From a virus (lineage: Duplodnaviria; Caudoviricetes): a stretch of DNA of 64,000 nt. The position numbers and the translations under genes were made by a program. The stretch lies in the IMG/VR virus record IMGVR_UViG_3300025868_000002, positions 8,812 through 72,811 of that record; one strand, 5' to 3'. Positions 41,815 through 64,000 of the stretch are shown piece by piece. Every line of letters begins with the position of its first letter. The first letter of the stretch is position 1. Below the pieces are notes generated by a model, which was not told where the DNA came from, made no database searches, and was given only the letters and a program-made list of their open reading frames with translations.

Positions 41815-42247
41815 TTTTCCGCCTCTTCCTTTTTTGTGGTTTCCCTACGCGTATAAAGAATCTATTATATATAATAACACAATATTTACTAAATTCCTGT
41901 AATACGTCTTCACTAGTATTTTCTGCACAATCTATATACTCATTAATTAATTTAGATCTTTCTAATAAAGATTGTGCAAATAATATTGGTTTATAAATAT
42001 TGTCATTAAATTCTTCAATTGTTTTTGATTTGTGTACATCAGTTATTGAACTATTTATTGAGTTAAATATTTTTTCAGAAAAAGAATCGTATTTTAACTT
42101 CTTTTCTTTGCTGCCGAGGGTATAAATAAACCTTGATATGGGGTCTAAAATAGTAAAACAAATATTCTCTAATATATATGATAGCTCCTTATCAACCTCC
42201 TTACAATTATTTTTATTTAAAGATAAAAGCCTGTCATAATTTATCAT
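41795..42247 (-). CDS. Hypothetical protein
   Basis: 150-aa ORF coupled to the polymerase gene. Confidence 0.5.
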   Translation of the reverse strand: MINYDRLLSLNKNNCKEVDKELSYILENICFTILDPISRFIYTLGSKEKKLKYDSFSEKIFNSINSSITDVHKSKTIEEFNDNIYKPILFAQSLLERSKLINEYIDCAENTSEDVLQEFSKYCVIIYNRFFIRVGKPQKRKRRKNGQKRN

Positions 42248-44166
42248 TATTTAATATCACCCCACGAGCTATAACTATAATTGTAATCAACTGTTAAATC
42301 AACTGCTTCCTTAAATTTTTTAAACTCCAATAATGGTCTTAACAAACCCACTGCTTTTTCTACTTCATATTTTGTGCTAACCTCACAAATAAGCTCATCA
42401 TGAATAACCAATATAGGGCGAATGTCCATGTCTGAAGTTCTTAATTTTTCATCAACATTTCTTAAAGCAATTTTCATTATATCGGCAGACGTACCTTGAA
42501 TTGGTGTATTTATAGCTTTTCTAACATCGGCAAAATATAGCTTCCTTTTTTCTGAAGCTAATTCATCATCATCATCTGGCATAACAACTAGCTTAATATT
42601 ATCTAGTCTTCTTTTTCTGCCAAAAGCAGTTAAAATATACCCATTTTCTTCGGCAAATTTAATCACTCTATCAAACCATTTTGTGTTACCAAGAAATCTT
42701 TCTTTATGATTTTTAATTAATTCACGCGCTTTTTCAACTTTAATATTTAGAGTATCGGCCAATTTATGCTCACCCATACCATAAAGGATACCAAAGTTAC
42801 AGGTTTTACTGATTTTTCTTTGCTGTTTTGTTACCTCATCAAGCGGCGTATCAAACAGCAATGAAGCGGCAACCTTATGCACATCTTCACCACAATTAAC
42901 AGAGTCATAAAGATGTGAAAGTTTTGCCATTCCAACTAATATTCTGTATTCCATCTGGTCATAATCCATGGACAAAAAGTAATAACCTTTTCTTGGCATT
43001 ATTGCATATCGCATACTTTCTGTCACATTCTGAAAATTTGGGTCGTTGGATGACATGCGGCCAGTCCCAGCACCAAGACTATTAAAATTAGTATATATTA
43101 TTTCAGACTTGCTATCCTCAATTATTTTTAACCAGGGAATTATATATTTTGTCAAAAGGCTATATAGTTTCTTCCTTTTAGAGTATAACTCAAATATATT
43201 ATCGTCTTCACTTAACCCGTAATTACTAAGTAAATCTGCAAATCTTATTTTATACTTATTTATGTGATAATCGTCAAAGCATATAGATCTGGTTTGGGTA
43301 TAACTAAAATACCGTTTCATGTCCGGAAATCTTGCCAAAATAAGCTCACCAAACTGCTCTCCGGAATTGATATTAAAATTATCACCGGCACCAAGTAACT
43401 TTTTTATTTTGTTATAAATTTCGTCTGCTTTTTCTTTATATTCTTTCTTGAGTGACACTAATTTCTTATAACAAACCCTTACTCCCCTTAATTCCATTTT
43501 GGCAAGTGGGTATATTAAATCAACTTCCACATTATACATATAATTTGGTTCCCACCCAGTTTCTTTAAAATACTCAAATATTCTTAATGTTAAATCTGTA
43601 TCTTGGCAGCAATATTCATATAATTCTTCCGGCTTTAACATGCTAACTTTATTATATTTTATATTATACTTTACAAGTATATCACCTAATTCAACAACAT
43701 TAAAATCAAATATTGTTTTTCCTAAATGTTTTAATTTACATGAATCAAATATGTCTAATAATTTTGCAATTACCAACGTGTCATGTTTACACCTTATGTT
43801 TATATTAAAATCTTTTAACGTAAATTTATAGTCAAATTTTAAATTATGGCCTAAAATATCTTTTTTTTCTAAATATTTAGCTATATATTTCTTAAAAATG
43901 GTCTCATCCAAGTTGTTACCAAATTTATGTTTAAGAGGTATGTAAAAACCCAAACCTGGCTCACCACAAAAGGACACTCCAACAATTTTTGAATTCTGTA
44001 TATTAATGCCATCTGTCTCAACATCATAAGCAATTACACTATATGTTTCTAATATTTCAGAAAGTCTTTTAGCTTTTCTTTCATTATCAACTATATGGTA
44101 ATTACAACCCTCTTTCCTAAACCATACTTCTTCACTAATTGCATTATCAAATAGTAATTGCTGCAT
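42247..44166 (-). CDS. polA: Family A DNA polymerase (3'-5' exonuclease + polymerase; likely start 44166)
   Basis: ExoI YDVETDG, ExoII GHNLKFD, ExoIII YCCQDTD; motif A DYDQMEYR, motif B RKISKTCNFGILYG, motif C IHDEL. Confidence 0.95.
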   Translation of the reverse strand: MQQLLFDNAISEEVWFRKEGCNYHIVDNERKAKRLSEILETYSVIAYDVETDGINIQNSKIVGVSFCGEPGLGFYIPLKHKFGNNLDETIFKKYIAKYLEKKDILGHNLKFDYKFTLKDFNINIRCKHDTLVIAKLLDIFDSCKLKHLGKTIFDFNVVELGDILVKYNIKYNKVSMLKPEELYEYCCQDTDLTLRIFEYFKETGWEPNYMYNVEVDLIYPLAKMELRGVRVCYKKLVSLKKEYKEKADEIYNKIKKLLGAGDNFNINSGEQFGELILARFPDMKRYFSYTQTRSICFDDYHINKYKIRFADLLSNYGLSEDDNIFELYSKRKKLYSLLTKYIIPWLKIIEDSKSEIIYTNFNSLGAGTGRMSSNDPNFQNVTESMRYAIMPRKGYYFLSMDYDQMEYRILVGMAKLSHLYDSVNCGEDVHKVAASLLFDTPLDEVTKQQRKISKTCNFGILYGMGEHKLADTLNIKVEKARELIKNHKERFLGNTKWFDRVIKFAEENGYILTAFGRKRRLDNIKLVVMPDDDDELASEKRKLYFADVRKAINTPIQGTSADIMKIALRNVDEKLRTSDMDIRPILVIHDELICEVSTKYEVEKAVGLLRPLLEFKKFKEAVDLTVDYNYSYSSWGDIK

Positions 44167-45070
44167 CAAAAACCTTCTTGACATTTGTAAAAGCAGTATT
44201 TGGATCTGGATGGTACGTAAGTAAATTAGTTGGATTTGTTGTTCTGGCTTTCTCAATAAATAAATGAGTAAGCATACTAATTGGCTTCCCTGGTATATGC
44301 GTTGGTATTAGCTGATTCTGAACAAACCATTGGGCATACGTGGGTATTTCCGCCCAAGAAGATATAATAGTAGGCCATGAGTTTACCCCTATAACCCCAG
44401 ATGCCCCATAAATTAAACTTATAGCCTCTGTAAGGGAAGTTTTCCCGCGTAAATCAACAACGGCACCACCAAAATCACCAATACGAAAATCTCTGGCATC
44501 TTTCCCTGTCCCTATGATATAAAGTTTTGTGCCAATATAATATTGGGCAACAAGTCGAATAAGTTCCCGCCATCTTTGCTTACTCCAAGTCCTTTCCGCC
44601 TTTTCAGTGGAAACCGCAGAAGATACCGGGTGTACAACAAAATATGGCTCTGGGTTAACAGCATGTTCAATATTCAACCTAAAGGGAAAAGTACTCTTAT
44701 ATTTATTGTATGTCTGAAGATAAATCCATTGTTCTACATATGGAAAAAATCTTGACAAAAATTCTATATATCGTGTCACACCTTCCCCTCCGCTAGACTG
44801 GGTAATAAATTTATCCTCAACTAAAGGTAATTTATCTTTTGGTAAACTAATCTTAAGATAATTTACCATCTGGCCTACGTCAGTTATTGTGATTGGGTAA
44901 TTTGAAAAATTAACTAACTCTCTTGCTAAATTTGGTGCTGGATTCCAAAGCAAAAAATTAATTCCTGAGTAATCACCATTAACCTGAAAAAAATTATCTA
45001 ACCGAGTCAGAAAAGTAAATAAATCACCCAATCCACATGCAACAGCAATATTTTTGTTAAAATCCAACAT
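44147..45070 (-). CDS. GT9-family (heptosyltransferase-like, GT-B) glycosyltransferase
   Basis: GLGD, VVHPVSS...RTWSKQRWRELI, IIGT...DLRGKTSLTEAISLIYGASGVIGVNSWP. Confidence 0.8.
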   Translation of the reverse strand: MLDFNKNIAVACGLGDLFTFLTRLDNFFQVNGDYSGINFLLWNPAPNLARELVNFSNYPITITDVGQMVNYLKISLPKDKLPLVEDKFITQSSGGEGVTRYIEFLSRFFPYVEQWIYLQTYNKYKSTFPFRLNIEHAVNPEPYFVVHPVSSAVSTEKAERTWSKQRWRELIRLVAQYYIGTKLYIIGTGKDARDFRIGDFGGAVVDLRGKTSLTEAISLIYGASGVIGVNSWPTIISSWAEIPTYAQWFVQNQLIPTHIPGKPISMLTHLFIEKARTTNPTNLLTYHPDPNTAFTNVKKVFDAAITI

Positions 45071-52561: not shown

Positions 52562-53449
52562 ATGAAATACTTGGTGTCAGTTGGCGAGGGTCTGGGAAAT
52601 GTAATTGAAACCCTACCACTAATAAAAGCACTAAAATACAATAAACTTGAGTTTGATATACTTAATTTGTCACATATACCAACAGAAAACGTTGAATGGA
52701 TTTTTAAGGAATATGCAACTGTTATCAAAGGAGAACCAAGAGTAGACCAATATGCTTATCGTATAGAATTGGCAACAACTAAATTTTGCCCAAAATTCTT
52801 TAATAGAACAAAAATACCACTTATAAACAATTTAAACAATCAATTCATTTATAGTACAATCACTAATGAAATAGAAGTTTATCTTAGCATTCTGAATGAG
52901 CTTAACTTTGAAGACGCTGAAATGCCTTATGATGTAGAACTTCCAAAAACAGAAGAAGAAGAACAATTTGACTTCATCCTTATGAATGGGTGTGCTGGGC
53001 GCTCTCAGTTAGAATTTAAACGAAAGAAATATCCTCATATGGCGGAACTAGGTAACCTGCTTATCTCTAAAAAGTATAAGGTGGCATCTATTGGCATCGG
53101 TGATGAGTATGCGGCAGGAGAAAATAAAACCGGAATGTCAATTTGTAAAACGGCTGGATACCTAAGAAGCTGTAAGTTTTTAATAACCAATGATACGGGT
53201 TTTGCACATCTTGCGGCAGCTTTAAAAATTAATGGGGTTATTTTATATACGGCAACTAACATGATTAAAAATTATCACCCAGTGTTCCATAAAACACTAA
53301 AACCAGTAACAGCAGATATACCTTGTCAGCCATGCCAATATCGTAAAACATGGAATCTGTGCTCACCTAAAACGTATAATAAATGGGAATGCCAAAATAT
53401 TCCCTTTAGTAAGATTTTGAAGGAGATAAAAAATGCTGACATTTTTTGA
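52562..53449 (+). CDS. GT9-family glycosyltransferase
   Basis: EGLGNV, KRKKYPHMAEL, KTGMSICKTAGYLRSCKFLITNDTGFAHLAAAL...P. Confidence 0.85.
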   Translation: MKYLVSVGEGLGNVIETLPLIKALKYNKLEFDILNLSHIPTENVEWIFKEYATVIKGEPRVDQYAYRIELATTKFCPKFFNRTKIPLINNLNNQFIYSTITNEIEVYLSILNELNFEDAEMPYDVELPKTEEEEQFDFILMNGCAGRSQLEFKRKKYPHMAELGNLLISKKYKVASIGIGDEYAAGENKTGMSICKTAGYLRSCKFLITNDTGFAHLAAALKINGVILYTATNMIKNYHPVFHKTLKPVTADIPCQPCQYRKTWNLCSPKTYNKWECQNIPFSKILKEIKNADIF

Positions 53450-53654
53450 GAAACATGCCTATATTGGATTTTCTTTTTTGTATGGGTTATCTTTTATTAT
53501 TAATTTTTTGATTTTTAACTTTGTTTTTGGTCTTCCACTTTTACTTTCGACTCTTTTGACAAGTCTTGGCACGATACTTGCTACAGTATTTCTTATGCCA
53601 AAAACGATACGGCGGGAGGCAAAAATAAGTGTTGTTAAGGATTCGCTGTATTAA
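53433..53654 (+). CDS. Small 2-TM membrane protein
   Basis: Hydrophobic 73-aa ORF coupled to the GT9 gene. Confidence 0.55.
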   Translation: MLTFFEKHAYIGFSFLYGLSFIINFLIFNFVFGLPLLLSTLLTSLGTILATVFLMPKTIRREAKISVVKDSLY

Positions 53655-53673
53655 TCAAAGTGGAGGTTAGGTA

Positions 53674-53955
53674 ATGATGAATGCAAAGTGGATTTACGGT
53701 GTTAAAAACATTGTGCCCAAAAGGAAGGTTAACAATGTAATTGACAATTCTAAGCGCAAGCAAGATATGGTTTACCTTACCAAATCTGATTTTACCACGT
53801 TTGCACGTAGATTTAAGCTCGGAAATTGGCGTAACGCTGTTGAGACTATTTGTGGGCCAAGAGCAAGCAAAGAGGTTATTAATTTGTATTCTGACGGTGT
53901 GGAATCTATCGGATTTCGCAAGAGAGAAATACGAAGGGCTGCTGATATTGGCTAA
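53674..53955 (+). CDS. Hypothetical protein
   Basis: 93-aa ORF with GGAGG RBS. Confidence 0.55.
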   Translation: MMNAKWIYGVKNIVPKRKVNNVIDNSKRKQDMVYLTKSDFTTFARRFKLGNWRNAVETICGPRASKEVINLYSDGVESIGFRKREIRRAADIG

Positions 53956-53963
53956 CTAAATAT

Positions 53964-53996
53964 AATGTAGGTGCCACATAAAATGGCACCTACATT
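53964..53996. repeat. Perfect 13-bp inverted repeat upstream of the amidase gene
   Basis: AATGTAGGTGCCA-cataaaa-TGGCACCTACATT. Confidence 0.85.
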
Positions 53997-54012
53997 GCCA
54001 TAAAGGAGTTTT

Positions 54013-54474
54013 ATGACAGAACCAACTAAAATGATAGGTAATCCCAAACATATAGTGCTGCATACATCTGCCACAGAGTATAACTGCAACAAAAATGTGA
54101 TAAATAGAATTCATTTGGAAAAAGGTTACCTTTTAATAGGATACCATTTTGTAATAACCGGATCACCGTTTGATACCGGTATTCCGCAGATTCAACAGGG
54201 TAGACGATTAATTTACCAGGGAGCACACGCCTACCATTTTAATAATACTATTGGTATTTGTGTTACAGGTCACGGCGATGTGGCACCTTGGACAGAATAC
54301 CAGAAGTATCACTTAAAAGTTCTTGTTAACTCTTTGCAGGATATATATAGCATCCCTAATGAGAATATTCTAGGGCACAGGGAAACCCCATACGAAGACG
54401 AACACCATCTAAAAACATGCCCAGGTAACCTTATTGATATGAATGAAATACGAAATTTTTTAAGAATAACATAA
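54013..54474 (+). CDS. N-acetylmuramoyl-L-alanine amidase (T7 lysozyme-like endolysin)
   Basis: IVLHTSA, IGYHFVI, GAHA...IGICV, GHRE, KTCPG Zn ligands. Confidence 0.93.
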   Translation: MTEPTKMIGNPKHIVLHTSATEYNCNKNVINRIHLEKGYLLIGYHFVITGSPFDTGIPQIQQGRRLIYQGAHAYHFNNTIGICVTGHGDVAPWTEYQKYHLKVLVNSLQDIYSIPNENILGHRETPYEDEHHLKTCPGNLIDMNEIRNFLRIT

Positions 54475-54484
54475 GGAAAAATAG

Positions 54485-55285
54485 ATGAAACCAAACAAAA
54501 CACCAAATATCCTATTTCTGGACATAGAAACAGCACCAATGACCTCATATATATGGAGATTGTGGAAACAGGATATAGGGTTAAACCTTGTTGAATCCGA
54601 TTGGCATATGCTTAGCTGGGCAGGAAAATGGATGGGGGATAAAAAAATAATTTCAGACGTGCTCCCAAATTATAAAAAAGAATACAAAGAAAATACAGAA
54701 AATGACATACGTATTTTAGAAAGTCTTTGGGAAGTAATTGACGCTGCTGATATTGTTGTTGCTCATAATGGAAACAAATTTGATATCCCCAAAATAAATG
54801 CAAGATTGCTTTATAATGGGTTTACTCCGCCAAGTCCGTATAGACAAATTGATACTTGTTTGATTGCTCGCTCTATTTTTGGGTTTACCTCTAATAAATT
54901 AGATTACTTAGCACAATACCTTGGTGTAGGTGAGAAAACAAAGCATGAAGGTTTTGACTTATGGCGAAAATGCCTCCAGGGTGATACAAAAAGTTGGGGA
55001 AAAATGGAGAAGTATAATAGAAATGATGTAGTCCTCCTAGAAAAAGTTTTTCATAAACTTGCCCCCTGGTCTAAGTCATTCCCTAATTTTGATATATATA
55101 CTGATGATAATAAACCGCATTGTGTAGCATGTGGTAATACCAATATTATTAATCGTGGCTTTGCTTATACGCAATTAGGTAAATTTCACCGCTATCAATG
55201 TAAATTATGTGGAAAATGGATGCGAGGAAGAAAAAATGTCCTCACAAAAACAAAAAAAACTAAAATTTTAACAAACATATTATAA
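54485..55285 (+). CDS. DEDD/RNase H-like 3'-5' exonuclease with a C-terminal Zn ribbon
   Basis: LDIETAP, AHNGNKFD, SNKLDY, YNRNDV, CVACG...CKLCG. Confidence 0.88.
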   Translation: MKPNKTPNILFLDIETAPMTSYIWRLWKQDIGLNLVESDWHMLSWAGKWMGDKKIISDVLPNYKKEYKENTENDIRILESLWEVIDAADIVVAHNGNKFDIPKINARLLYNGFTPPSPYRQIDTCLIARSIFGFTSNKLDYLAQYLGVGEKTKHEGFDLWRKCLQGDTKSWGKMEKYNRNDVVLLEKVFHKLAPWSKSFPNFDIYTDDNKPHCVACGNTNIINRGFAYTQLGKFHRYQCKLCGKWMRGRKNVLTKTKKTKILTNIL

Positions 55286-55394
55286 AAATGAAAAAAAACA
55301 TAGTTATTGTCGGAGTTTTTTCTAACGAATGGCCTACAAATGAAAAAAAACATAGTTATTGTCGGAGTTTTTTCTAACGAATGGTCTACAAATG
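55286..55394 (+). repeat. 52-bp tandem duplication (1 mismatch) of the glycosyltransferase start
   Basis: Copies at 55286-55337 and 55338-55389, bounded by AAATG at 55286, 55338 and 55390. Confidence 0.95.
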
Positions 55395-56254
55395 TGTTCA
55401 TGGCTAACGCATTTGAAAATATAGGATTTAATGTCTTTAGATTTGACTTTAGGGCATTCCCTAAGCATGAAATACCAAAAATGCTTATTGATTTTATTAA
55501 TTCTATTAATGATGTTTTTTTGATTGTTTTTTGTAAAGTTGATTCTGTGCCAATTAAAACACTAAAAGACTTAACAGGAATCATTCCTACTTGGTATTGG
55601 TTTATGGACCCTATGACTGTCGCAAATACTATTAATGCGGCAGAAAGAGCAAGGGCATGCACCTATGCTAGTTCTACTTCGTATAAAGTAACAGAATACT
55701 TTAAAAACTTTAACAAAAACTCCTATAGAATAATAGAGGGTGTTGATACAACACTCTATAGAAACTTGGGATTAAAAAAAGAATACGATGTCTTGTTTGT
55801 CGGGACACCTGACCAAAAAAGATTAAACTATTTATTAAATGTGCCTTATAATGTAAAAATATTTGGTAATTATTGGCCACAATGTAAGCATGAAACAAAT
55901 CCGCCAATTTATAATGAAGATTTAGTTTTAGCTATAAATAAATCCAAAATTATATTAAACTTTACTAGACCAGATAGCTATTCAGATAGGGTCACCCAGA
56001 TACTCGCCTGCGGTGGATTTGTTTTAACTGAATATGCTGATGATCTTTTTATGGATTTTGGTGATTCATTAACATACTTTACTAATGTAAATGAATTAAA
56101 TCAAGCCATTGGGTATTTCTTAAAAGCACCGACTATAAGATCAAATTATATAAGAAAATATTATAGAAAAAATTTAAAACCATTAATTCAAACATGGGAA
56201 AAAACATGTGATGAAATCATACAACGTGTAAAGGAAAATGATGAACCCATCTGA
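55340..56254 (+). CDS. CgeB-like / GT1-type (GT-B) glycosyltransferase
   Basis: YWFMDP, EGVDTTLY, YDVLFVGT...R, INKSKIILN, SDRVTQILACGGFVLTE; ATG at 55340. Confidence 0.82.
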   Translation: MKKNIVIVGVFSNEWSTNVFMANAFENIGFNVFRFDFRAFPKHEIPKMLIDFINSINDVFLIVFCKVDSVPIKTLKDLTGIIPTWYWFMDPMTVANTINAAERARACTYASSTSYKVTEYFKNFNKNSYRIIEGVDTTLYRNLGLKKEYDVLFVGTPDQKRLNYLLNVPYNVKIFGNYWPQCKHETNPPIYNEDLVLAINKSKIILNFTRPDSYSDRVTQILACGGFVLTEYADDLFMDFGDSLTYFTNVNELNQAIGYFLKAPTIRSNYIRKYYRKNLKPLIQTWEKTCDEIIQRVKENDEPI

Positions 56255-57047
56255 TTTTAGAAAAGGTTTTTGCATTATTATTCCTTCTTGGAATAATAAT
56301 GATTATTTATTTTTTGCTATTAATTCCATAAAGGAATTTTCAAGGTATGACCACCAGATTGTTGTTCATCTAAACCAAGGAAACAACGCAACAAGAGATA
56401 TACTTAGTAAAATGGGATGCCAAGTAACTATGTCACCAAGCAATCTCGGTATAGCTAAGGCAGTAAATACAGCCGCTACCCTTTGTAATAAAGATATCAT
56501 TATGTATTTTAACGATGATATGGTTGCCCTGCCAGGGTGGGATACAGAATTTACAAAATTTGTTTTCGAAAATAATCTAGAACATGAAACCTGGCTAAGT
56601 TCTACCATGATTGAGCCAAGGGGTAAAAGAATAGAAATGCTTGCTCCGTTTAATTACGGTAAACATCCTAAAGAATTTAAAAAAGAGGCAATACTTCGTG
56701 ATTTGCCAAGATTAAAGTCAATGGCGCGTAATAGGAAAGGCACAACCTGGCCGCCAAATCTAATGTATAAAGACATATGGGATAAAATAGGTGGATTTTC
56801 CGAAGAATTCTTTCCTGGTTTCGGGACTGACCCAGACATAGCAAAAAAGATGTGGGATATTGGTTGCAGAGATTTTATTGCCCTGGGCAACAGCTTAGTT
56901 TACCATTTCCAAATGATAACAACAACAAGAGTACTTAATCCGCATACTGAACAACAAATTTTTGAGAAAAAGCACGGTATAACAATTGATAAATTTGTTA
57001 CAGAGTATTTGCATAGGGGGGGACTGTGGTGCCCAAAAAATTGCTAG
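56238..57047 (+). CDS. GT2-family glycosyltransferase
   Basis: IIIPSWNN, NLGIAKAVN, YFNDDM, IGGFSEEFFPGFGTDPD, LVYHF. Confidence 0.88.
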   Translation: MMNPSDFRKGFCIIIPSWNNNDYLFFAINSIKEFSRYDHQIVVHLNQGNNATRDILSKMGCQVTMSPSNLGIAKAVNTAATLCNKDIIMYFNDDMVALPGWDTEFTKFVFENNLEHETWLSSTMIEPRGKRIEMLAPFNYGKHPKEFKKEAILRDLPRLKSMARNRKGTTWPPNLMYKDIWDKIGGFSEEFFPGFGTDPDIAKKMWDIGCRDFIALGNSLVYHFQMITTTRVLNPHTEQQIFEKKHGITIDKFVTEYLHRGGLWCPKNC

Positions 57048-57125
57048 CCACGCCAAACAAACAAACTTATTAAGGTAAAAAATTACATAGTAATTATTAG
57101 TTTAACAAAATATGGTGGTATCATA

Positions 57126-57638
57126 TTGGGAATTATGCAAAAATTTGGGTCTTTCATTAATGAAAAATCGGATATAAGTGAACATTTGCTAACAATATTT
57201 GAGACATGTAGGCCCTATAAGCATATAACAGAATTTGGATTACGTAAGGGTAAATCTACTATAGCTATCCTGGCCTCAACACCCAATAAATTTATTTCTT
57301 ATGAATTATTTCCGATAGAAGAAGAAATAAATAAAATAAAAGAAATGGCAAAAATAGAAAATTTAAATTTTATAGTAAAAATTGAAGATTCAAGAAAATG
57401 TGTAATAGAAGATACTGATGTTTTATTTATTGATACAGAACATAATTATGAGCAACTTTACACCGAATTAACTAAACACGCAAATAATGTTAGGCATAAG
57501 ATTATTATGCACGACACAGAAACTTTCCCAAAAATGACCAGTGCGTTATATGATTTTCTAAATAGTCACCAAGAATGGGAAGTTGAACTTGTAAAACACA
57601 ACAATAACGGGTTAACTATTATACGTAGGTTGCCATAA
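57126..57638 (+). CDS. Class I SAM-dependent methyltransferase (Methyltransf_24-like)
   Basis: EFGLRKGKST, DVLFIDTEHNYEQL, IIMHDT, NNNGLTII. Confidence 0.85.
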   Translation: MGIMQKFGSFINEKSDISEHLLTIFETCRPYKHITEFGLRKGKSTIAILASTPNKFISYELFPIEEEINKIKEMAKIENLNFIVKIEDSRKCVIEDTDVLFIDTEHNYEQLYTELTKHANNVRHKIIMHDTETFPKMTSALYDFLNSHQEWEVELVKHNNNGLTIIRRLP

Positions 57639-57698
57639 AATCTTGGCTTAATTTTTGCAAGAGACAAATGTTAACGGGTTAAACATACAGGAGCTATA

Positions 57699-58412
57699 AT
57701 GTTAACAAAAAAATTATTTATCATTACAAATGAGGAAAGAAGTAGGATGTCCTTAAATGCAATGAAGTCAATAGTTCCACATACCAAAGAAACAGAATTA
57801 AGGGTTTTTCTTAATTGCAAAATTGATTTTAACCCTTTAATTGATTACGCAATGTTTTTCCAAAATATAGATAAAAGAATAAAAATTAACTGTGAAGACA
57901 AAAAATTTGGGCTATCTATGGCATGGAATCACTGCTGTGAACAAACAAAAGAAGATGTATGCATCCTGTTAAATGATGATGTTGTATTAAATGATGAAAA
58001 TTGGGAAACCAATCTTGATGAATTACTCGAAAAAAATAAAAGGCATAAAGTATTTTTGCTCTGTGCCCCAAATGGGTTTAGCGGATTCGCAATAAGAAAA
58101 TCTTTCTGGGAACTTATAGGTGGATTTACACCATTCCCATCCGGCTATTATGAAGATGATGATTTCTTTCTCCGTGTAATGAAATTGTACGGGCTTCACC
58201 ATAAGAAAGAAATAATGGATGAAGTGTTCTTTTCCTTGTATGATAGGGGAATTAAACCTATGTTTGCACATGTCCCTAATCCCTGTGCTAAAAAATGGGA
58301 TAAATCTATAAACTCAAGATTATTCCATAGCATGTGGAAAGAAACGAAAACCAGTACAAGCACAAGTTTTGAAAATAAAAACGGGATTAACTATGAATGG
58401 ATAGGAAAATAA
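57699..58412 (+). CDS. GT2-like glycosyltransferase
   Basis: GLSMAWN, LLNDDV, LIGGFTPFPSGYYEDDDF, AH. Confidence 0.8.
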   Translation: MLTKKLFIITNEERSRMSLNAMKSIVPHTKETELRVFLNCKIDFNPLIDYAMFFQNIDKRIKINCEDKKFGLSMAWNHCCEQTKEDVCILLNDDVVLNDENWETNLDELLEKNKRHKVFLLCAPNGFSGFAIRKSFWELIGGFTPFPSGYYEDDDFFLRVMKLYGLHHKKEIMDEVFFSLYDRGIKPMFAHVPNPCAKKWDKSINSRLFHSMWKETKTSTSTSFENKNGINYEWIGK

Positions 58413-58615
58413 TGAATCACAAGCATTGTAATCATACAATTGAACCACAATTTATACAAGTTGGAGAAATCTTTACAAATCAGGAATGCCCTTTATGCGG
58501 CTCATATTTAAAACTTTGTGGTTATACCCTGCCAAAAGACATAAATGATGTTGTACTGTATGTAGAATGTTTAAAAAATGGGTGTGCATACAAAGGTAAA
58601 AGGACTTTAATCTAA
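58397..58615 (+). CDS. Small Cys-rich (Zn-binding) protein
   Basis: HKHC, CPLCG, C...C motifs. Confidence 0.5.
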   Translation: MDRKIMNHKHCNHTIEPQFIQVGEIFTNQECPLCGSYLKLCGYTLPKDINDVVLYVECLKNGCAYKGKRTLI

Positions 58616-59821: not shown

Positions 59822-60028
59822 ATGATTCTTATTAACTCAAAATTCTACCCACTAAAAGAAGCTGAAACTGGAGAATGCCCGTTTTGTCACAAAGACCTAA
59901 AATTTGAAGAAAACCCCTTTGAGCAAACAATTGAAAAACATGCTATTTGTTGCGGATTTGTTTATAATCTAATGGTAACCGAAGAAAAAAATAAAGTTAA
60001 ACTACATATCAAGCCAACCAAGATTTAG
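59822..60028 (+). CDS. Small Zn-ribbon protein
   Basis: CPFC...CCG. Confidence 0.5.
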   Translation: MILINSKFYPLKEAETGECPFCHKDLKFEENPFEQTIEKHAICCGFVYNLMVTEEKNKVKLHIKPTKI

Positions 60029-60085: not shown

Positions 60086-61546
60086 ATGCCTGCATTCACA
60101 AATATAATTTTTGGTATACATAAAAAATGTGGCGGATATGTAAGAAAAGCCACACAAAATTTAGGCGTAAAAGCAATTTACTACTGTACAAGCTGCTGGA
60201 AAAACTCGGCTATTGGAAATTTAAGCCCTGACCATGATGTTTACAGATGGCTTGATATTGATATTTTAGACACACCACAAACAAATAAATTGGGGCTAGC
60301 CTTCCCAACACAGAATACAGATAACTATCAATTTGTCCACGATACAGGATTTAGCTATGTAAGGATTGATTGTGATTGGGATTACAGAGAACCATCTAAT
60401 GGGGAGTTTAACTGGACTCCGTTAGATAATAGGATTATAGAAGGAAATAGGTTAGGCTTTAAGTGGATTTTGACCCTTATATGTAACTCTTCGTGGGGAA
60501 CCACAACTGTCCCCGGCACAACGTCGTTAAACCAGCCGCCTACTGATGTTGCAGACTGGACTAACTTCGTTATGAGGACTGTCGCAAGGTATTCCCTTGG
60601 TAACCAATATACAATGCCAGGATTAACAAAAAATGTTAACCTGTATATGTTCCCTAATGAATGGAATAGCACTTCAAATAAATATGGTGGTTGGGGGGGA
60701 ACATACACCGATCTCCATGATTTAATGAATACTACCTATGATGCTATTAAATATGCTAATCCCGATGCTACCTTTATTATTGGTGCTAGCGGAACCGCGC
60801 ATACATCGGCATTAGCCGTATACGCTGGTTATGGCGATTATGACGTAATAACATCGGCAGGAACATTTTCACCGACAGATATCTCAAGTAGTTACGCTGC
60901 TGAATATACAGACACAACAAATTTTTACAAAAATCTTAAAGGTGATTATATTGATTGCCATTTTTACGGCCCTATTGCCCACGATAACCCAAAAATATCA
61001 CTAATGACAGAGTTAAAAGGATATGCCACATCATCGCCACAGCTTTGCACAACTGAATTTGGCGGTCCAAGCACATACTATGACTCCGATATGAAAGATA
61101 TCGAATTCTTTATGAATCCAATTGAGCGATATTTAAACTACATTAACAAAGGGTTTGCTTTCCAAACTTGGTTTGGCCTTGTCACAACATCAGAAACTTC
61201 AACAAATAGATTTGTTCCCCTAATGGAAAATAAAGATAAAATAAGACCACAATATTATGCCACAAAATTACTAGCTAATTTATTCAAAGATGGGGTTATG
61301 TCTGTTGTGCATATTACAGACAGCCTTTATTTTATATTGGTTTCTCCATTCTATGGTAAATATGTTGCGTGGAAAGCGGGCTCTGACACAACATTTGCGG
61401 CGCAGTCATACACACACACTGCAAATGATTATATACTGGTTTATGACCCTAAAAATGGTAAATACGCAGAAAAAGTATTACCAGATGATGGTATTGTTAC
61501 CCTTACAGATCTTCCATCAATATTTACATATGATTTTACTGCGTAA
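60086..61546 (+). CDS. Clan GH-A (GH39/GH5-like) glycoside hydrolase with an N-terminal Zn-ribbon leader
   Basis: VRIDCDW..EP..GEFNW..LD, acid/base PNEW, DCHFYG, nucleophile TEFG. Confidence 0.75.
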   Translation: MPAFTNIIFGIHKKCGGYVRKATQNLGVKAIYYCTSCWKNSAIGNLSPDHDVYRWLDIDILDTPQTNKLGLAFPTQNTDNYQFVHDTGFSYVRIDCDWDYREPSNGEFNWTPLDNRIIEGNRLGFKWILTLICNSSWGTTTVPGTTSLNQPPTDVADWTNFVMRTVARYSLGNQYTMPGLTKNVNLYMFPNEWNSTSNKYGGWGGTYTDLHDLMNTTYDAIKYANPDATFIIGASGTAHTSALAVYAGYGDYDVITSAGTFSPTDISSSYAAEYTDTTNFYKNLKGDYIDCHFYGPIAHDNPKISLMTELKGYATSSPQLCTTEFGGPSTYYDSDMKDIEFFMNPIERYLNYINKGFAFQTWFGLVTTSETSTNRFVPLMENKDKIRPQYYATKLLANLFKDGVMSVVHITDSLYFILVSPFYGKYVAWKAGSDTTFAAQSYTHTANDYILVYDPKNGKYAEKVLPDDGIVTLTDLPSIFTYDFTA

Positions 61547-61585
61547 TCAACGTGGTTTACTTGAAAGACTATGCTATACCAATTT

Positions 61586-61624
61586 AGGTCCCCCAAAGGA
61601 GCACCCTGGGGGACCTGTTTCTTG
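61586..61624 (+). terminator. Intrinsic terminator-like hairpin
   Basis: AGGTCCCCCA/TGGGGGACCT 10-bp stem followed by GTTTCTT. Confidence 0.65.
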
Positions 61625-61665
61625 GCATAAAATTTGCACTTCATACTTAACTAAAGGAGATTCTA

Positions 61666-61983
61666 ATGGATATTAGTGAAAAAATGGGATACGCTGCTTC
61701 TATAAAAAATCTTAATGACAAAATTAAAACACTTGAAATTGAAATAAATACACTAAAAGAAATAAATAATGCCCTTAGTAATACTATGATTTTAGTGTAT
61801 AAGAATAACTTATTAGCCGAAAATATTGATGAAGATATCCTTAAAGAAAAAATAAAAGAATCTTTAAAAATTGCTAATATAAAATTACCTAGCAATAAAA
61901 TAAAAAAAGAATTAGAAATAACAGATACACATACTGAAAAGAAACCACAAAAAGAAAAAAATTATGATAAAAAATATACTTAA
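61666..61983 (+). CDS. Hypothetical coiled-coil protein
   Basis: 105 aa; AAGGAG RBS. Confidence 0.55.
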   Translation: MDISEKMGYAASIKNLNDKIKTLEIEINTLKEINNALSNTMILVYKNNLLAENIDEDILKEKIKESLKIANIKLPSNKIKKELEITDTHTEKKPQKEKNYDKKYT

Positions 61984-62167
61984 AAAACTAAAACCCCAAC
62001 CTACGGAAGCTATGTGGTGTGTTACACTTACCATTATGAATATGACTACTTGGCATGTGTGGAGACCCCAAAGTACTTGGATGTTTTATTTCTCTCTGTT
62101 ACTTTATCCTCTTTTTTATGTTTTTAGCAAATTATTCCTTAATAAAATACACCAAAATAAACGTTAA
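61964..62167 (+). CDS. Small membrane protein
   Basis: 67 aa with a hydrophobic C-terminal half. Confidence 0.45.
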   Translation: MIKNILKKLKPQPTEAMWCVTLTIMNMTTWHVWRPQSTWMFYFSLLLYPLFYVFSKLFLNKIHQNKR

Positions 62168-62216
62168 ATGGCATTGACCACAAACATGCGTGATACGTAC
62201 TTAAAAAATAACTTTT

Positions 62217-62289
62217 GCCCCCGTAGCTTAAAGGTTAGAACATCAGACTTTCAATCCGGTAATGCTGAGTCCAAACCTCACCAGGGGTA
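62217..62289 (+). tRNA. Degenerate tRNA-Glu(UUC), possible pseudo-tRNA
   Basis: The cloverleaf folds with anticodon TTC, but has mismatches in the acceptor, anticodon and T stems, T-loop TCCAAAC, and CTA in place of CCA. Confidence 0.55.
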
Positions 62290-62297
62290 CTAATGCC

Positions 62298-62386
62298 GGG
62301 GAAATGGCAGAATGGTAATGCGGCAGACTTGAAATCTGTGGCCCGCCCTTGAGACGGTGTGGGTTCAAATCCTACTTTCCCCGCCA
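62298..62386 (+). tRNA. tRNA-Ser(UGA)
   Basis: GGGGAAA/TTTCCCC, G73, CCA; loop CT-TGA-AA; long variable arm; T-loop TTCAAAT. Confidence 0.9.
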
Positions 62387-62408
62387 TAAACTGATTTCAA
62401 ACTAATAT

Positions 62409-62429
62409 ATAGCATGACTCCCATGCTAT
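62409..62429 (+). terminator. Hairpin after the tRNA pair
   Basis: ATAGCATG-actcc-CATGCTAT. Confidence 0.45.
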
Positions 62430-62468
62430 TATAACTAAAATATTTTTTAAAAACTAAAAGTATCACCC

Positions 62469-62705
62469 ATGAATGAACAAGAAAAAAAAAATAAATGGGA
62501 AAATATTTATCCGCCTAAATCAGAAAAATGGACGGATGGATGGTATATATTCAAGTTCTTTAAACAAAAAAAAGAAGACTTTACTTTATATATCCCTTTT
62601 TATGTCGTTGATGGACTAATATACTCAGAAATATATGCATATGTCGAAACTGTAGAAAATGCAAGAAGAACAAATACAGGATATGTGTATAAAATTGAAA
62701 CTTAA
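62469..62705 (+). CDS. Hypothetical protein
   Basis: 78-aa ORF. Confidence 0.5.
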   Translation: MNEQEKKNKWENIYPPKSEKWTDGWYIFKFFKQKKEDFTLYIPFYVVDGLIYSEIYAYVETVENARRTNTGYVYKIET

Positions 62706-62759
62706 TAAAATATAATAAATAGTGTTATTATACATAGACCTTAACCCATAGGAAACCGT

Positions 62760-63824
62760 ATGCCTGCCTTCTCTAATAAAACTATCGGAACACATAAAAG
62801 ATGCGGCGGAAATGTCCATCAAATAAAACAAACATTGGGCACTAAAACATTCTACTACTGCGATAACTGCTCACTGAATTCGTCCGTAAGTAAACTAGAT
62901 ATAAATAATGATGTCTACCTTTTCCATGATGTGCGCGGCTTAATAAAATGGGGAAATAGCCCACAATTTACACTCAACAACTGGGCAAACGCTATTAGTA
63001 AATATGACTTCTTCGCTACTACACCTGGAGCTTGGGAAAACCACGCCAATACTATCGCCACTATTAAAAATGTTAACCCAAAATTTAAAGCAGGAACTTA
63101 CTTCCAAATGCATACCGCAGCCACTTGGATGGCCTCCGCTGGCGAAGGTACTTATCCTAAATTACTGTGGGACTACCTTAGCCTTCACCCAGCAGGATCT
63201 GTAGATGGATCTACTATACCCACTGTGTGGTACACTAACCCTGTATATGATATCTTCAACGCTACTGTGAGACAAACCGCTGCAAACTTGCTAGGTAATT
63301 ATGTTAATACCTATAACCTTAATTGGATATTTTTGGATTTTGTTAGTGTGCCTATCGGTTCTTTTAATGGTTCCTATATCCTTGACTTTAATAGAAATGG
63401 AGTGTCCCTGTGGGATGATACAACAGAACAAGACCAACTGAAACAAGTGTGGTTTGATTATATCTCCGAAATAAGAACAGAAGTAGGAGATGATGTCCAA
63501 ATTATTCCAAACGGAAAACTTGCACTTACAGATGATAGCTTTGCTTCTATTGTTGATGGTTGCTTTGTTGAAGATTTTCCTAAATACTTTTTTGGTAGCG
63601 TTGAATATGACTGGGATGGAGCCTTTAATATAGAACATATACCCTCACTTTATAGCCTTAATCAAAAAAGGTACAGAAATGGTAGAGGAAGTGTATTTAT
63701 ACATAATGACATTAATATAGATACAGATAACTGGCGAAAAGTTAGGGATAAATATCCTAACCTTATTATATGTAATGAGCAAAAAACCGAAGGATTGCCA
63801 CCAGACCCCACACCACCAATGTAA
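62760..63824 (+). CDS. TIM-barrel glycoside hydrolase-like protein (GH114/GH166/GHL15-like) with an N-terminal Zn-ribbon leader
   Basis: IATIKNVNPKFK..TY, WIFLDFV, VQIIPNG, VDGCFVEDF. Confidence 0.6.
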   Translation: MPAFSNKTIGTHKRCGGNVHQIKQTLGTKTFYYCDNCSLNSSVSKLDINNDVYLFHDVRGLIKWGNSPQFTLNNWANAISKYDFFATTPGAWENHANTIATIKNVNPKFKAGTYFQMHTAATWMASAGEGTYPKLLWDYLSLHPAGSVDGSTIPTVWYTNPVYDIFNATVRQTAANLLGNYVNTYNLNWIFLDFVSVPIGSFNGSYILDFNRNGVSLWDDTTEQDQLKQVWFDYISEIRTEVGDDVQIIPNGKLALTDDSFASIVDGCFVEDFPKYFFGSVEYDWDGAFNIEHIPSLYSLNQKRYRNGRGSVFIHNDINIDTDNWRKVRDKYPNLIICNEQKTEGLPPDPTPPM

Positions 63825-63855: not shown

Positions 63856-63999
63856 AATTGTCACAGAATACTGTGAATTGTCACAGAATTGTCACAGAAT
63901 ATTGTTAATTGTCACAGAATTGCCTAAAAATACGGTGAAATATCACTAAATATCATAAAATTATAACGAAATGACAAAAAGTGTCACGAAATCGTGACA
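63856..63999. repeat. Array of AATTGTCACAGAAT direct repeats plus TCAC/GTGA inverted repeats
   Basis: Copies at 63856, 63876, 63887 and 63907; palindromes TCACAG-aata-CTGTGA, GTGA-aata-TCAC and TGTCACGA-aa-TCGTGACA. Confidence 0.9.
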
Positions 64000-64000
64000 A

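What the first reader, a model, noticed from the sequence alone, without database searches (positions are those of the whole stretch)
60086..62933. Two unrelated glycoside hydrolases share an ungapped ~57-aa His/Cys Zn-ribbon leader: a candidate modular docking tag
Seen: residues 1-57 of ORF 60086-61546 (MPAFTNIIFGIHKKCGGYVRKATQNLGVKAIYYCTSCWKNSAIGNLSPDHDVYRWLD) and of ORF 62760-63824 (MPAFSNKTIGTHKRCGGNVHQIKQTLGTKTFYYCDNCSLNSSVSKLDINNDVYLFHD) align without gaps at 27/57 identity by hand count. They share H12-x2-C15 and C34-x2-C37. Similarity stops abruptly after the leader. One protein continues as a clan GH-A barrel with intact NE/TE catalytic motifs; the other continues as a different barrel (FLD...VEDF). 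Neither has a signal peptide, and both lie far from the morphogenesis operon on the opposite strand. Inference: the leader is a portable Zn-binding adaptor that plugs interchangeable glycan-degrading enzymes onto a common partner (capsid, tail or a host structure), forming a swappable depolymerase system. I do not recognise this leader as a named family.
Basis: partly seen in the sequence, partly recalled or inferred. Interest (0 to 1): 0.82.

Follow-up and report, generated by a model that had tools for sequence, protein, structure and literature searches.

The report
Zinc-ribbon leader on two phage glycosidases
Two unrelated sugar-cutting enzymes of an uncultured phage begin with the same small zinc-binding domain, which in other phages is a free-standing mini-protein; nothing yet shows that it docks the enzymes onto the virus particle.

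Summary
ORFs 60086-61546 (486 aa) and 62760-63824 (354 aa) share an ungapped N-terminus (27/57 identical, BLASTP E 3e-15, about 30 sd above shuffles), and nothing after it.

The leader is an autonomous H-x2-C…C-x2-C zinc ribbon with the signature G-x-H-K-x-C-G-G-x-V…C-x2-C. AlphaFold2 gives it pLDDT 75-97. It has no Pfam, PHROG, NCBIfam or PDB sequence match.

The family is small and was found only in phage contigs. Elsewhere it occurs as free 55-83-aa proteins, or at the C-terminus of a 106-168-aa protein. A sister phage (L003) encodes four free copies among its glycan genes. One lies 9 nt upstream of a distant homologue of the second enzyme, and that homologue carries its own signal/anchor segment.

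The first cargo is clan GH-A (GH39/PslG-like). The second is probably a GH114/GH168-like barrel.

No other cargo fusion was found in protein searches of 1.8 and 5.8 billion sequences or in motif scans of viral, metagenome and genome collections. Both genes lie outside the structural module.

My best reading is an old, twice-fused partner-binding handle with an unidentified partner. The virion-docking, swappable-depolymerase idea remains untested speculation. Interest is moderate.

The parts
60086..60256 (+). Zinc-ribbon leader (residues 1-57) of the 486-aa protein; ligands H12, C15, C34, C37
   Evidence: Pairwise alignment; family alignment with invariant G10 H12 K13 C15 G16 G17 V19 C34 C37; AF2 pLDDT 75-97 with strands 5-12, 18-23, 30-34, 52-54
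60257..61546 (+). Clan GH-A (GH39/GH42/GH5-like, PslG-like) catalytic barrel plus a beta-rich C-terminal region. FPNEW (N190-E191) is the candidate acid/base and TTEFG (E325) the candidate nucleophile.
   Evidence: tblastn and BLASTP to the Caulobacter phage Cr30 'beta-1,4 xylanase' (E 3e-6 and 5e-13) with the NE motif aligned. That protein hits Pfam GH39, GH42 and GH5 above threshold. Weak direct hits to GH42 and PslG. ESM Atlas neighbours all in one clan. The nucleophile is assigned by reading the sequence only.
62760..62930 (+). Zinc-ribbon leader (residues 1-57) of the 354-aa protein
   Evidence: AF2 pLDDT 78-94 with strands 4-12, 18-24, 30-34, 52-54
62931..63824 (+). Probable GH114/GH168/GH191-like TIM barrel (motifs IFLD and DGCFVEDFP)
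   Evidence: phmmer hits to three GH168 ('GH114 TIM-barrel') PDB entries at E 0.1-0.4. Foldseek top hits are GH168, GH191 and a Planctomycetota barrel at E 2e-5 to 1e-3, but TM is only 0.3 from a low-confidence model. Atlas top cluster is GH114 TIM barrel at 0.88. BLASTP E 8e-6 to the L003 412-aa protein, sharing DG-x-[FW]-[VL]-E-D-[FW]-P.
52562..58412 (+). Context: glycan-handling cluster upstream on the same strand. It holds GT9-like, GT1-like, GT2, a methyltransferase and GT2-like genes, interspersed with an amidase endolysin and a polymerase exonuclease.
   Evidence: Pfam and PHROG hits

Best explanation
**What it is.** The shared 57 residues are an autonomous H-C-C-C zinc-ribbon domain from a small, so far unclassified family found only in phage contigs. 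Its signature is G-x-H-K-x-C-G-G-x-V, then 12-15 residues, then C-x2-C.

**Its usual form.** The commonest form found is a free 55-83-aa protein. In this phage lineage two anciently diverged copies are fused in frame to the N-termini of two unrelated, signal-less TIM-barrel glycoside hydrolases. One is a clan GH-A, GH39/PslG-like enzyme. The other is a GH114/GH168-like enzyme. Both lie at the end of a glycosyltransferase-rich gene cluster.

**The sister phage.** L003 encodes the same domain as four separate small genes interleaved with the equivalent genes. One lies immediately upstream of the GH114-like homologue. The link between ribbon and glycan enzymes is therefore older than the fusion.

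**Inferred mechanism.** The ribbon is a small protein-binding handle that ties the enzymes carrying it to a common, still unidentified partner in the infected cell. It is not part of the catalytic fold.

**Shown:** the domain's autonomy, its duplication, purifying selection on it, the fusion/fission relation, and the absence of export signals.

**Inferred:** zinc binding, any partner binding, and the enzymes' substrates.
For: - **Real, conserved similarity:** E 3e-15, about 30 sd above shuffles, dN/dS 0.22 with saturated dS.
- **Conserved ligands:** nine members share an invariant H/C/C/C plus GG and V.
- **Independent fold:** AF2 models the leader confidently as a small sheet, followed by a low-confidence linker, in both proteins.
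- **Free-standing members:** L003 has four (55, 79, 77, 83 aa). L016 has 73 aa, L037/L088 61 aa and L078 about 58 aa. L038/P0007 carries it C-terminal to a helical region.
- **Fusion/fission:** L003 ZnR-3 ends 9 nt before a 412-aa protein that is a distant homologue of the window's 354-aa enzyme (E 8e-6). That protein has its own N-terminal hydrophobic segment.
- **Extra pair-specific conservation:** the two window leaders also share MPAF-N at the N-terminus and DVY…D at the C-terminus, beyond the family core. This fits a surface specific to this pair.
- **No consistent charge:** net charge across the family ranges from -3 to +6, so there is no uniform basic, nucleic-acid-type surface.
Against:
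- Apart from K13, the family-wide invariant residues are all of the kind that build zinc knuckles. There is no obviously conserved interaction surface across the family.
- Close stand-alone members in unrelated phages have no glycan genes nearby. Any common partner would have to be general, or else the partner differs between lineages.
- In L003 the linked enzyme appears to be exported or membrane-anchored, while the ribbon has no signal. This makes a direct ribbon-enzyme complex there awkward.
- Only two fusions are known, both in one phage lineage.
Confidence: 0.4

Rival explanations
1. Virion docking tag. The ribbon plugs interchangeable glycan-degrading enzymes onto a capsid or tail receptor, making them virion-borne depolymerases.
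For: - The same leader sits on two different glycan-cleaving enzymes with no export signal.
- The L003 homologue is exported by a signal/anchor. The substrate is therefore probably extracytoplasmic, and the signal-less fused form needs another route out.
- By general knowledge, phage depolymerases commonly carry N-terminal anchor domains.
Against: - The genes lie about 25 kb from the tail/baseplate module, on the other strand, among replication, lysis and glycosyltransferase genes.
- There are no PHROG tail-fibre or tailspike hits.
- No further cargoes were found anywhere.
- Free-standing homologues occur in unrelated phages among early-type small genes.
- Monomer-type TIM barrels differ from the usual trimeric beta-helix tailspikes (general knowledge).
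Confidence: 0.15
2. Nucleic-acid-binding or regulatory mini-protein. The family is a set of small early or middle regulators (DNA-, RNA- or polymerase-binding zinc ribbons). The fused forms tether the enzymes to nucleic acid or merely inherit a regulator domain.
For: - Stand-alone members lie in runs of small early-type ORFs beside other Cys-rich mini-proteins.
- Looser relatives of the HK-x-CGG…C-x2-C pattern include Lar-like small proteins and the Fpg C-terminal zinc finger.
- The best structural neighbour of the leader is the zinc-ribbon elongation factor Elf1, but only at Z 2.9.
- Several members are basic, with pI 8.5-9.9.
Against: - Charge is not consistently basic (net -3 to +6). Three of the L003 copies are acidic overall.
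- No sequence match to any nucleic-acid-binding zinc-ribbon family reaches significance.
- There is no obvious reason to tether glycoside hydrolases to nucleic acid. The phage encodes ThyX rather than a base-hydroxymethylase, so it gives no sign of glycosylated DNA.
Confidence: 0.15
3. Passenger or stabilising domain with no dedicated partner. The ribbon gene marks cassette boundaries in this variable region. Recombination fused it to whatever followed, and it now only caps or solubilises the enzymes. It replaces a signal peptide, so the enzymes stay cytoplasmic until lysis releases them as free polysaccharide-degrading enzymes.
For: - In L003 ribbon genes alternate with cargo genes (ZnR-2 before the methyltransferase, ZnR-3 before the GH, ZnR-4 before a GT-like gene).
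- The region differs strongly between relatives. L052 has no ribbon in the 21 kb fetched around its GT9-like gene.
- The fused form lacks the signal/anchor segment that the L003 homologue has.
- An amidase endolysin and a holin-like gene lie in the same strand block.
Against: - dN/dS is 0.22 over a saturated dS. The two leaders also conserve N- and C-terminal segments beyond the zinc core, which argues for a maintained function.
- Both fusions keep exactly the same domain boundary.
Confidence: 0.2

Closest known systems
Generic zinc-ribbon domains (for example Elf1, TFIIB/TFIIS-type ribbons, the Fpg/IleRS zinc finger PF06827, Lar-like phage mini-proteins PF14354)
   Same: - Two zinc knuckles about 19 residues apart (C15 to C34).
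- A small three-stranded sheet in the AF2 model.
- A 'CGG-x-V … [FY]-x-C-x2-C' pattern reminiscent of Fpg and Lar knuckles, seen in looser pattern hits.
   Different: - The first ligand is His in an H-K-x-C knuckle.
- No significant sequence match to any Pfam zinc-ribbon model or any PDB chain.
- The structural match to Elf1 is only Z 2.9.
- It forms a separate small family found only in phage contigs.
N-terminal anchor/adaptor domains of phage tailspike depolymerases (for example K1F/K1-5-type adaptors, CBA120 TSP N-terminal domains); from general knowledge
   Same: A conserved N-terminal module followed by divergent glycan-degrading cargo.
   Different: - Those genes lie in the tail module, are trimeric beta-helix proteins and are proven virion parts.
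- Here the genes lie outside the structural module, the cargoes are TIM barrels, the leader is a zinc ribbon, and virion association is untested.
PslG (GH39-like) and GH114/GH166 PelA-type or GH168 hydrolases
   Same: The cargo domains resemble these exopolysaccharide or fucan endo-hydrolases. As in Psl/Pel operons, they are encoded next to glycosyltransferases.
   Different: - The bacterial enzymes are periplasmic or secreted with signal peptides and have no zinc ribbon.
- Sequence identity is at most about 25%.
- Substrate is unknown.
Cohesin-dockerin style modular enzyme recruitment (cellulosomes)
   Same: Conceptually, one small shared module on different glycoside hydrolases that could recruit them to one scaffold.
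   Different: - No scaffold or cohesin-like partner is identified.
- The module is zinc-based rather than a Ca-binding dockerin.
- Only two cargoes exist.
- No homology.

Membership tests
Zinc-ribbon fold | Two metal-binding knuckles (C/H-x2-C) separated by roughly 15-20 residues | tested here: met
   H12-x2-C15 and C34-x2-C37 are invariant in 9 of 9 members
Zinc-ribbon fold | Beta-hairpins forming a small three-stranded sheet | tested here: met
   AF2 models of both proteins show strands 4/5-12, 18-23/24 and 30-34 at pLDDT 75-97. This is a prediction only.
Zinc-ribbon fold | Binds one Zn2+ | not testable with these tools
   Needs metal analysis of purified protein
Named Pfam/PHROG zinc-ribbon families (Lar_restr_allev, Zn_ribbon_13, zf-FPG_IleRS and others) | Significant match to the family HMM | tested here: not met
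   No Pfam family is matched by more than one of nine members, and the best E is 0.007. No PHROG scores below E 0.014. No PDB sequence hit.
Clan GH-A glycoside hydrolase (GH39/GH42/GH5-like), first cargo | Sequence homology to clan members | tested here: met
   The link is transitive. The cargo matches the Cr30 'xylanase' at BLASTP E 5e-13 over residues 84-256. That protein hits GH39 at 1e-10, GH42 at 6e-10 and GH5 at 3e-7, all above the Pfam cut-offs. The direct Pfam hit is sub-threshold (GH42, E 0.044).
Clan GH-A glycoside hydrolase (GH39/GH42/GH5-like), first cargo | N-E acid/base after strand 4 and a Glu nucleophile after strand 7 | tested here: inconclusive
   FPNEW aligns with the Cr30 WNE motif. 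The TTEFG nucleophile is assigned by eye only. The AF2 barrel is low confidence.
GH114/GH168-like TIM barrel, second cargo | Significant sequence or structure match to the family | tested here: inconclusive
   phmmer E 0.1-0.4 to three GH168 entries. Foldseek E 2e-5 to 1e-3 but TM about 0.3 from a pLDDT-53 model. Atlas score 0.88. No Pfam hit. A two-sequence profile did not improve the result.
Phage tailspike/depolymerase with N-terminal virion anchor | Gene in the tail/baseplate module, or homology to tail fibre/spike families | tested here: not met
   The genes are at 60-64 kb on the + strand and the tail genes at 2.6-26 kb on the - strand. No PHROG structural hits.
Phage tailspike/depolymerase with N-terminal virion anchor | Protein present in virions | not testable with these tools
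   Needs virion proteomics
T4-type capsid targeting sequence | Short (about 10-20 aa) unstructured N-terminal peptide removed by the prohead protease | tested here: not met
   The leader is a folded 57-aa metal-binding domain. Cleavage was not tested.

The most novel reading that the evidence does not exclude
The ribbon is a dedicated docking tag, a zinc-based analogue of dockerin. It loads interchangeable glycan-degrading enzymes onto one receptor, either on the virion or on a membrane or lysis complex. The free ribbon proteins of sister phages would then be competitors or adaptors for the same receptor. This would be a previously undescribed way for phages to assemble and swap depolymerase sets.
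Probability: 0.12. Interest if true: 0.75.

Novelty: new variant of a known kind. Interest (0 to 1): 0.4.

Why it matters
If the ribbon is a recruitment handle, it would be a compact (about 55 aa) natural tag for attaching enzymes to a phage or host structure. That would be useful for engineering depolymerase-armed phages. It would also be a new example of modular enzyme assembly outside cellulosomes.

Without that, the finding still defines a new small zinc-ribbon family found only in phage contigs. It documents a clean fusion/fission case linking the family to glycan enzymes. It also flags an uncultured phage found in many samples that carries four glycosyltransferases and two polysaccharide hydrolases with unknown targets. 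As it stands it is a well-defined hypothesis, not a demonstrated system.

Tried and rejected
- Complex prediction (leader with leader) was closed, so no binding test was run.

**Spurious hits**
- The top hits of the leader HMM in the 1.84-billion library (4220, 424 and 1945 aa) are low-complexity repeat proteins whose scores sum over many stretches. They are not relatives.
- The weak hit of the second enzyme to L101 is a short chance match.

**Ideas tested and dropped**
- I asked whether the C-terminal tails of L003 ZnR-2 and ZnR-3 are remnants of the GH N-terminus. The two tails are homologous to each other (z 8.6) but not to any GH N-terminus (z<1).
- A two-sequence profile of the second cargo against the PDB gave nothing better than the single sequence.

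**Searches for more members or cargoes**
- Word-based searches with the first enzyme's leader and its catalytic part returned only the protein itself.
- The search for related loci with the leader alignments found motif matches but confirmed none by tblastn.
- The sister contig L052, reached through the GT9-like gene, has no ribbon in 21 kb.
- Motif scans recovered only small free proteins or looser relatives, and no new enzyme fusion. These covered viral contigs, metagenomes (CAT codon only) and genomes (CAT codon only).
- Population variants of both proteins are nearly identical and uninformative.
- The two neighbouring Cys-rich small ORFs (58397-58615 and 59822-60028) are not hit by the family HMM.

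**Host**
- The family-A polymerase has no relative above 29% identity among sequenced phages, so no host could be assigned.


Full report
**1. The observation**

The window is the last 64 kb of a 72.8-kb IMG/VR viral contig that CheckV rates 55% complete. ORF 60086-61546 (486 aa) and ORF 62760-63824 (354 aa) are present as described.

- BLASTP aligns residues 1-58 without gaps at 27 identities, E 3e-15. No other segment reaches E<1.
- The local alignment score of the two leaders is 150. Shuffles give a mean of 22, sd 4.3 and maximum 47.
- DNA similarity starts exactly at the ATG. The upstream regions share only an AGGA/GGAG ribosome-binding site.
- Across the 57 codons, nucleotide identity is 62%, dS 1.77 and dN/dS 0.22. 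Nine of the 27 identical residues use different codons.

The two leaders are therefore old paralogues kept by purifying selection. Only two copies exist in the contig and in a longer contig of the same phage.

**2. What the leader is**

A profile of the two leaders, searched against 1.84 billion representative proteins, gave one genuine new hit. This was a free-standing 55-aa protein (P0005, E 3.9e-4). The higher-scoring long proteins are repeat proteins and spurious.

P0005's contig (L003, 37.9 kb) belongs to a sister phage. It shares a 43%-identical GT9-like gene and a similar layout in which minus-strand genes diverge from a plus-strand block. L003 encodes four free paralogues of the leader, of 55, 79, 77 and 83 aa.

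Motif scans added further free members:
- L016, 73 aa.
- L037 and L088, 61 aa.
- L078, about 58 aa.
- L038 (P0007), where the domain ends a 106-168-aa protein.

In the nine-sequence alignment G10, H12, K13, C15, G16, G17, V19, C34 and C37 are invariant.

With that alignment, AlphaFold2 models residues 1-57 of both window proteins at pLDDT 75-97 as a small sheet (strands about 4-12, 18-24, 30-34 and 52-54). A low-confidence stretch follows. This is a zinc-ribbon-type domain.

No family in any library claims it:
- No Pfam family is hit by more than one member, and none below E 0.007.
- No PHROG scores below E 0.014.
- NCBIfam gives no hit to either full-length protein.
- There is no PDB sequence hit.
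- The best structural neighbour is the zinc-ribbon protein Elf1, at an uninformative Z 2.9.

Looser 'HK-x-CGG…C-x2-C' matches in metagenomes and genomes are other small proteins, some with Lar-like tails, and the Fpg zinc finger. These show the general ribbon pattern, not membership.

**3. The cargoes**

*First cargo.* It matches a Caulobacter phage Cr30 protein annotated as xylanase (tblastn E 3e-6, pairwise E 5e-13, residues 84-256). Its FPNEW motif aligns with the partner's WNE. The Cr30 protein hits Pfam GH39, GH42 and GH5 above their thresholds. Direct weak hits to GH42 and PslG, and ESM Atlas neighbours all in the same clan, agree. Clan GH-A membership is therefore supported. The TTEFG nucleophile is read from the sequence only.

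*Second cargo.* The signals are weak but consistent.
- phmmer E 0.1-0.4 to three GH168 fucanase entries titled 'GH114 TIM-barrel'.
- Foldseek top hits to GH168, GH191 and related barrels at E 2e-5 to 1e-3. TM is only about 0.3 because the barrel model is poor.
- An Atlas top cluster named GH114 TIM barrel, at 0.88.

I call it a probable GH114/GH168-like barrel.

Neither protein has a hydrophobic segment.

**4. Fusion and fission**

In L003 the third ribbon gene ends 9 nt before a 412-aa gene. The product of that gene aligns with the C-terminal half of the window's second enzyme (E 8e-6) and shares the DG-x-[FW]-[VL]-ED-[FW]-P motif. That homologue has its own N-terminal hydrophobic signal/anchor segment, as does the 1228-aa protein after it.

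The other L003 ribbon genes precede a methyltransferase-like gene, related by weak Pfam hits to the window's 57126-57638, and a GT-like gene. So in this lineage the ribbon goes with glycan genes whether fused or not, and the enzyme fold does not need it.

The association is not universal:
- Another relative (L052) has no ribbon in the 21 kb fetched around its GT9-like gene.
- Free members in unrelated phages lie among small early-type ORFs with no glycan genes.

**5. Search for further cargoes**

No third enzyme fusion turned up in any of these:
- The 1.84-billion representative search.
- The 'longer proteins' search of 5.8 billion with the nine-sequence profile, which returned only the two window proteins and P0007.
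- Motif scans of IMG/VR with both His codons.
- Motif scans of metagenomes and of GTDB genomes, CAT codon only.

These searches have limits. The word-based search scored only 8000 candidates, and the DNA scans need an exact motif. Still, a widespread swappable-cargo system should have shown up.

**6. Context**

The phage is an uncultured tailed phage. It has a 1585-aa tape measure, a portal and a family-A polymerase at most 29% identical to any sequenced phage.

The + strand block from 52.5 to 64 kb holds, in order:
- tRNA-Thr, then a GT9-like gene.
- A holin-like membrane protein, then an amidase endolysin.
- The polymerase exonuclease subunit.
- GT1-like, GT2, methyltransferase and GT2-like genes.
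- Small Cys-rich ORFs and a PD-(D/E)XK exonuclease.
- The two ribbon-GH genes, separated by a coiled-coil ORF and tRNA-Ser.

All recognisable virion genes are on the other strand. The same two proteins recur almost unchanged on many contigs from many samples.

**7. Interpretation**

The following are firmly shown:
- An autonomous, conserved domain that probably binds zinc.
- Two ancient fusions with an identical domain boundary.
- A lineage-specific link to glycan enzymes.
- No export signal.

The function is inferred. I favour a partner-binding handle (0.40). Three things fit a maintained surface rather than a passive cap. The two leaders conserve MPAF-N and DVY…D segments beyond the zinc core. 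Selection is purifying. The domain travels with glycan genes both fused and unfused.

The rivals are:
- **Virion docking tag (0.15).** It is attractive because the exported L003 homologue suggests an outside substrate. The gene's position, the lack of further cargoes and the free homologues elsewhere count against it.
- **Nucleic-acid-binding or regulatory mini-protein (0.15).** Early-gene neighbourhoods fit. Inconsistent charge and the lack of a rationale for the fusion count against it.
- **Passenger or stabilising domain acquired by cassette recombination (0.20).** The enzymes would then be released at lysis.

**8. Novelty and verdict**

The zinc-ribbon fold is ordinary. The family itself is unclassified. 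Two full-text literature searches found no description of a zinc ribbon heading phage glycoside hydrolases. I rate it a new variant of a known kind, of moderate interest (0.4).

The 'swappable depolymerase docking system' part is not supported by anything found here and remains to be tested.

Noticed in passing
window 63858-64000 (continues in L045 11097-11588): An array of 11-nt iterons (TTGTCACAGAA) starts 34 nt after the stop of the second ribbon-GH gene. In a longer contig it forms three clusters over about 500 nt. Three independent assemblies end inside it. It may be a replication origin or a regulator-binding array.
   Followed up: partly
window 58397-58615 and 59822-60028: Two further small Cys-rich ORFs of 72 and 68 aa. 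The first reads HKHC…CPLC with a Cys spacing one residue longer than the leader's, but the family HMM does not hit it.
   Followed up: partly
window 52562-58412: A phage cluster of four glycosyltransferase-like genes (GT9-like with a C-terminal CxxC…C…C motif, GT1-like, GT2, GT2-like) plus a methyltransferase. The target is unknown: host envelope, virion proteins or something else.
   Followed up: no
window 54485-55285 (+) and 42247-44256 (-): The family-A DNA polymerase appears split. A 3'-5' exonuclease subunit and the polymerase body are separate genes on opposite strands.
   Followed up: no
window 19499-24256: The tape measure protein (1584 aa) has an internal segment (residues 256-415) that matches an endolysin-type PHROG. 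This suggests a cell-wall-degrading domain.
   Followed up: no
L003 10505-14191: In the sister phage a 1228-aa protein with an N-terminal membrane anchor and a weak, sub-threshold TIG-domain hit lies between the GH114-like gene and the fourth free ribbon gene. It matches no family.
   Followed up: no
L003 8171-8410 and 9010-9243: Two of the free ribbon proteins share a homologous acidic C-terminal tail of about 25 aa (z 8.6), absent from the fused leaders. It might be their own interaction segment.
   Followed up: partly
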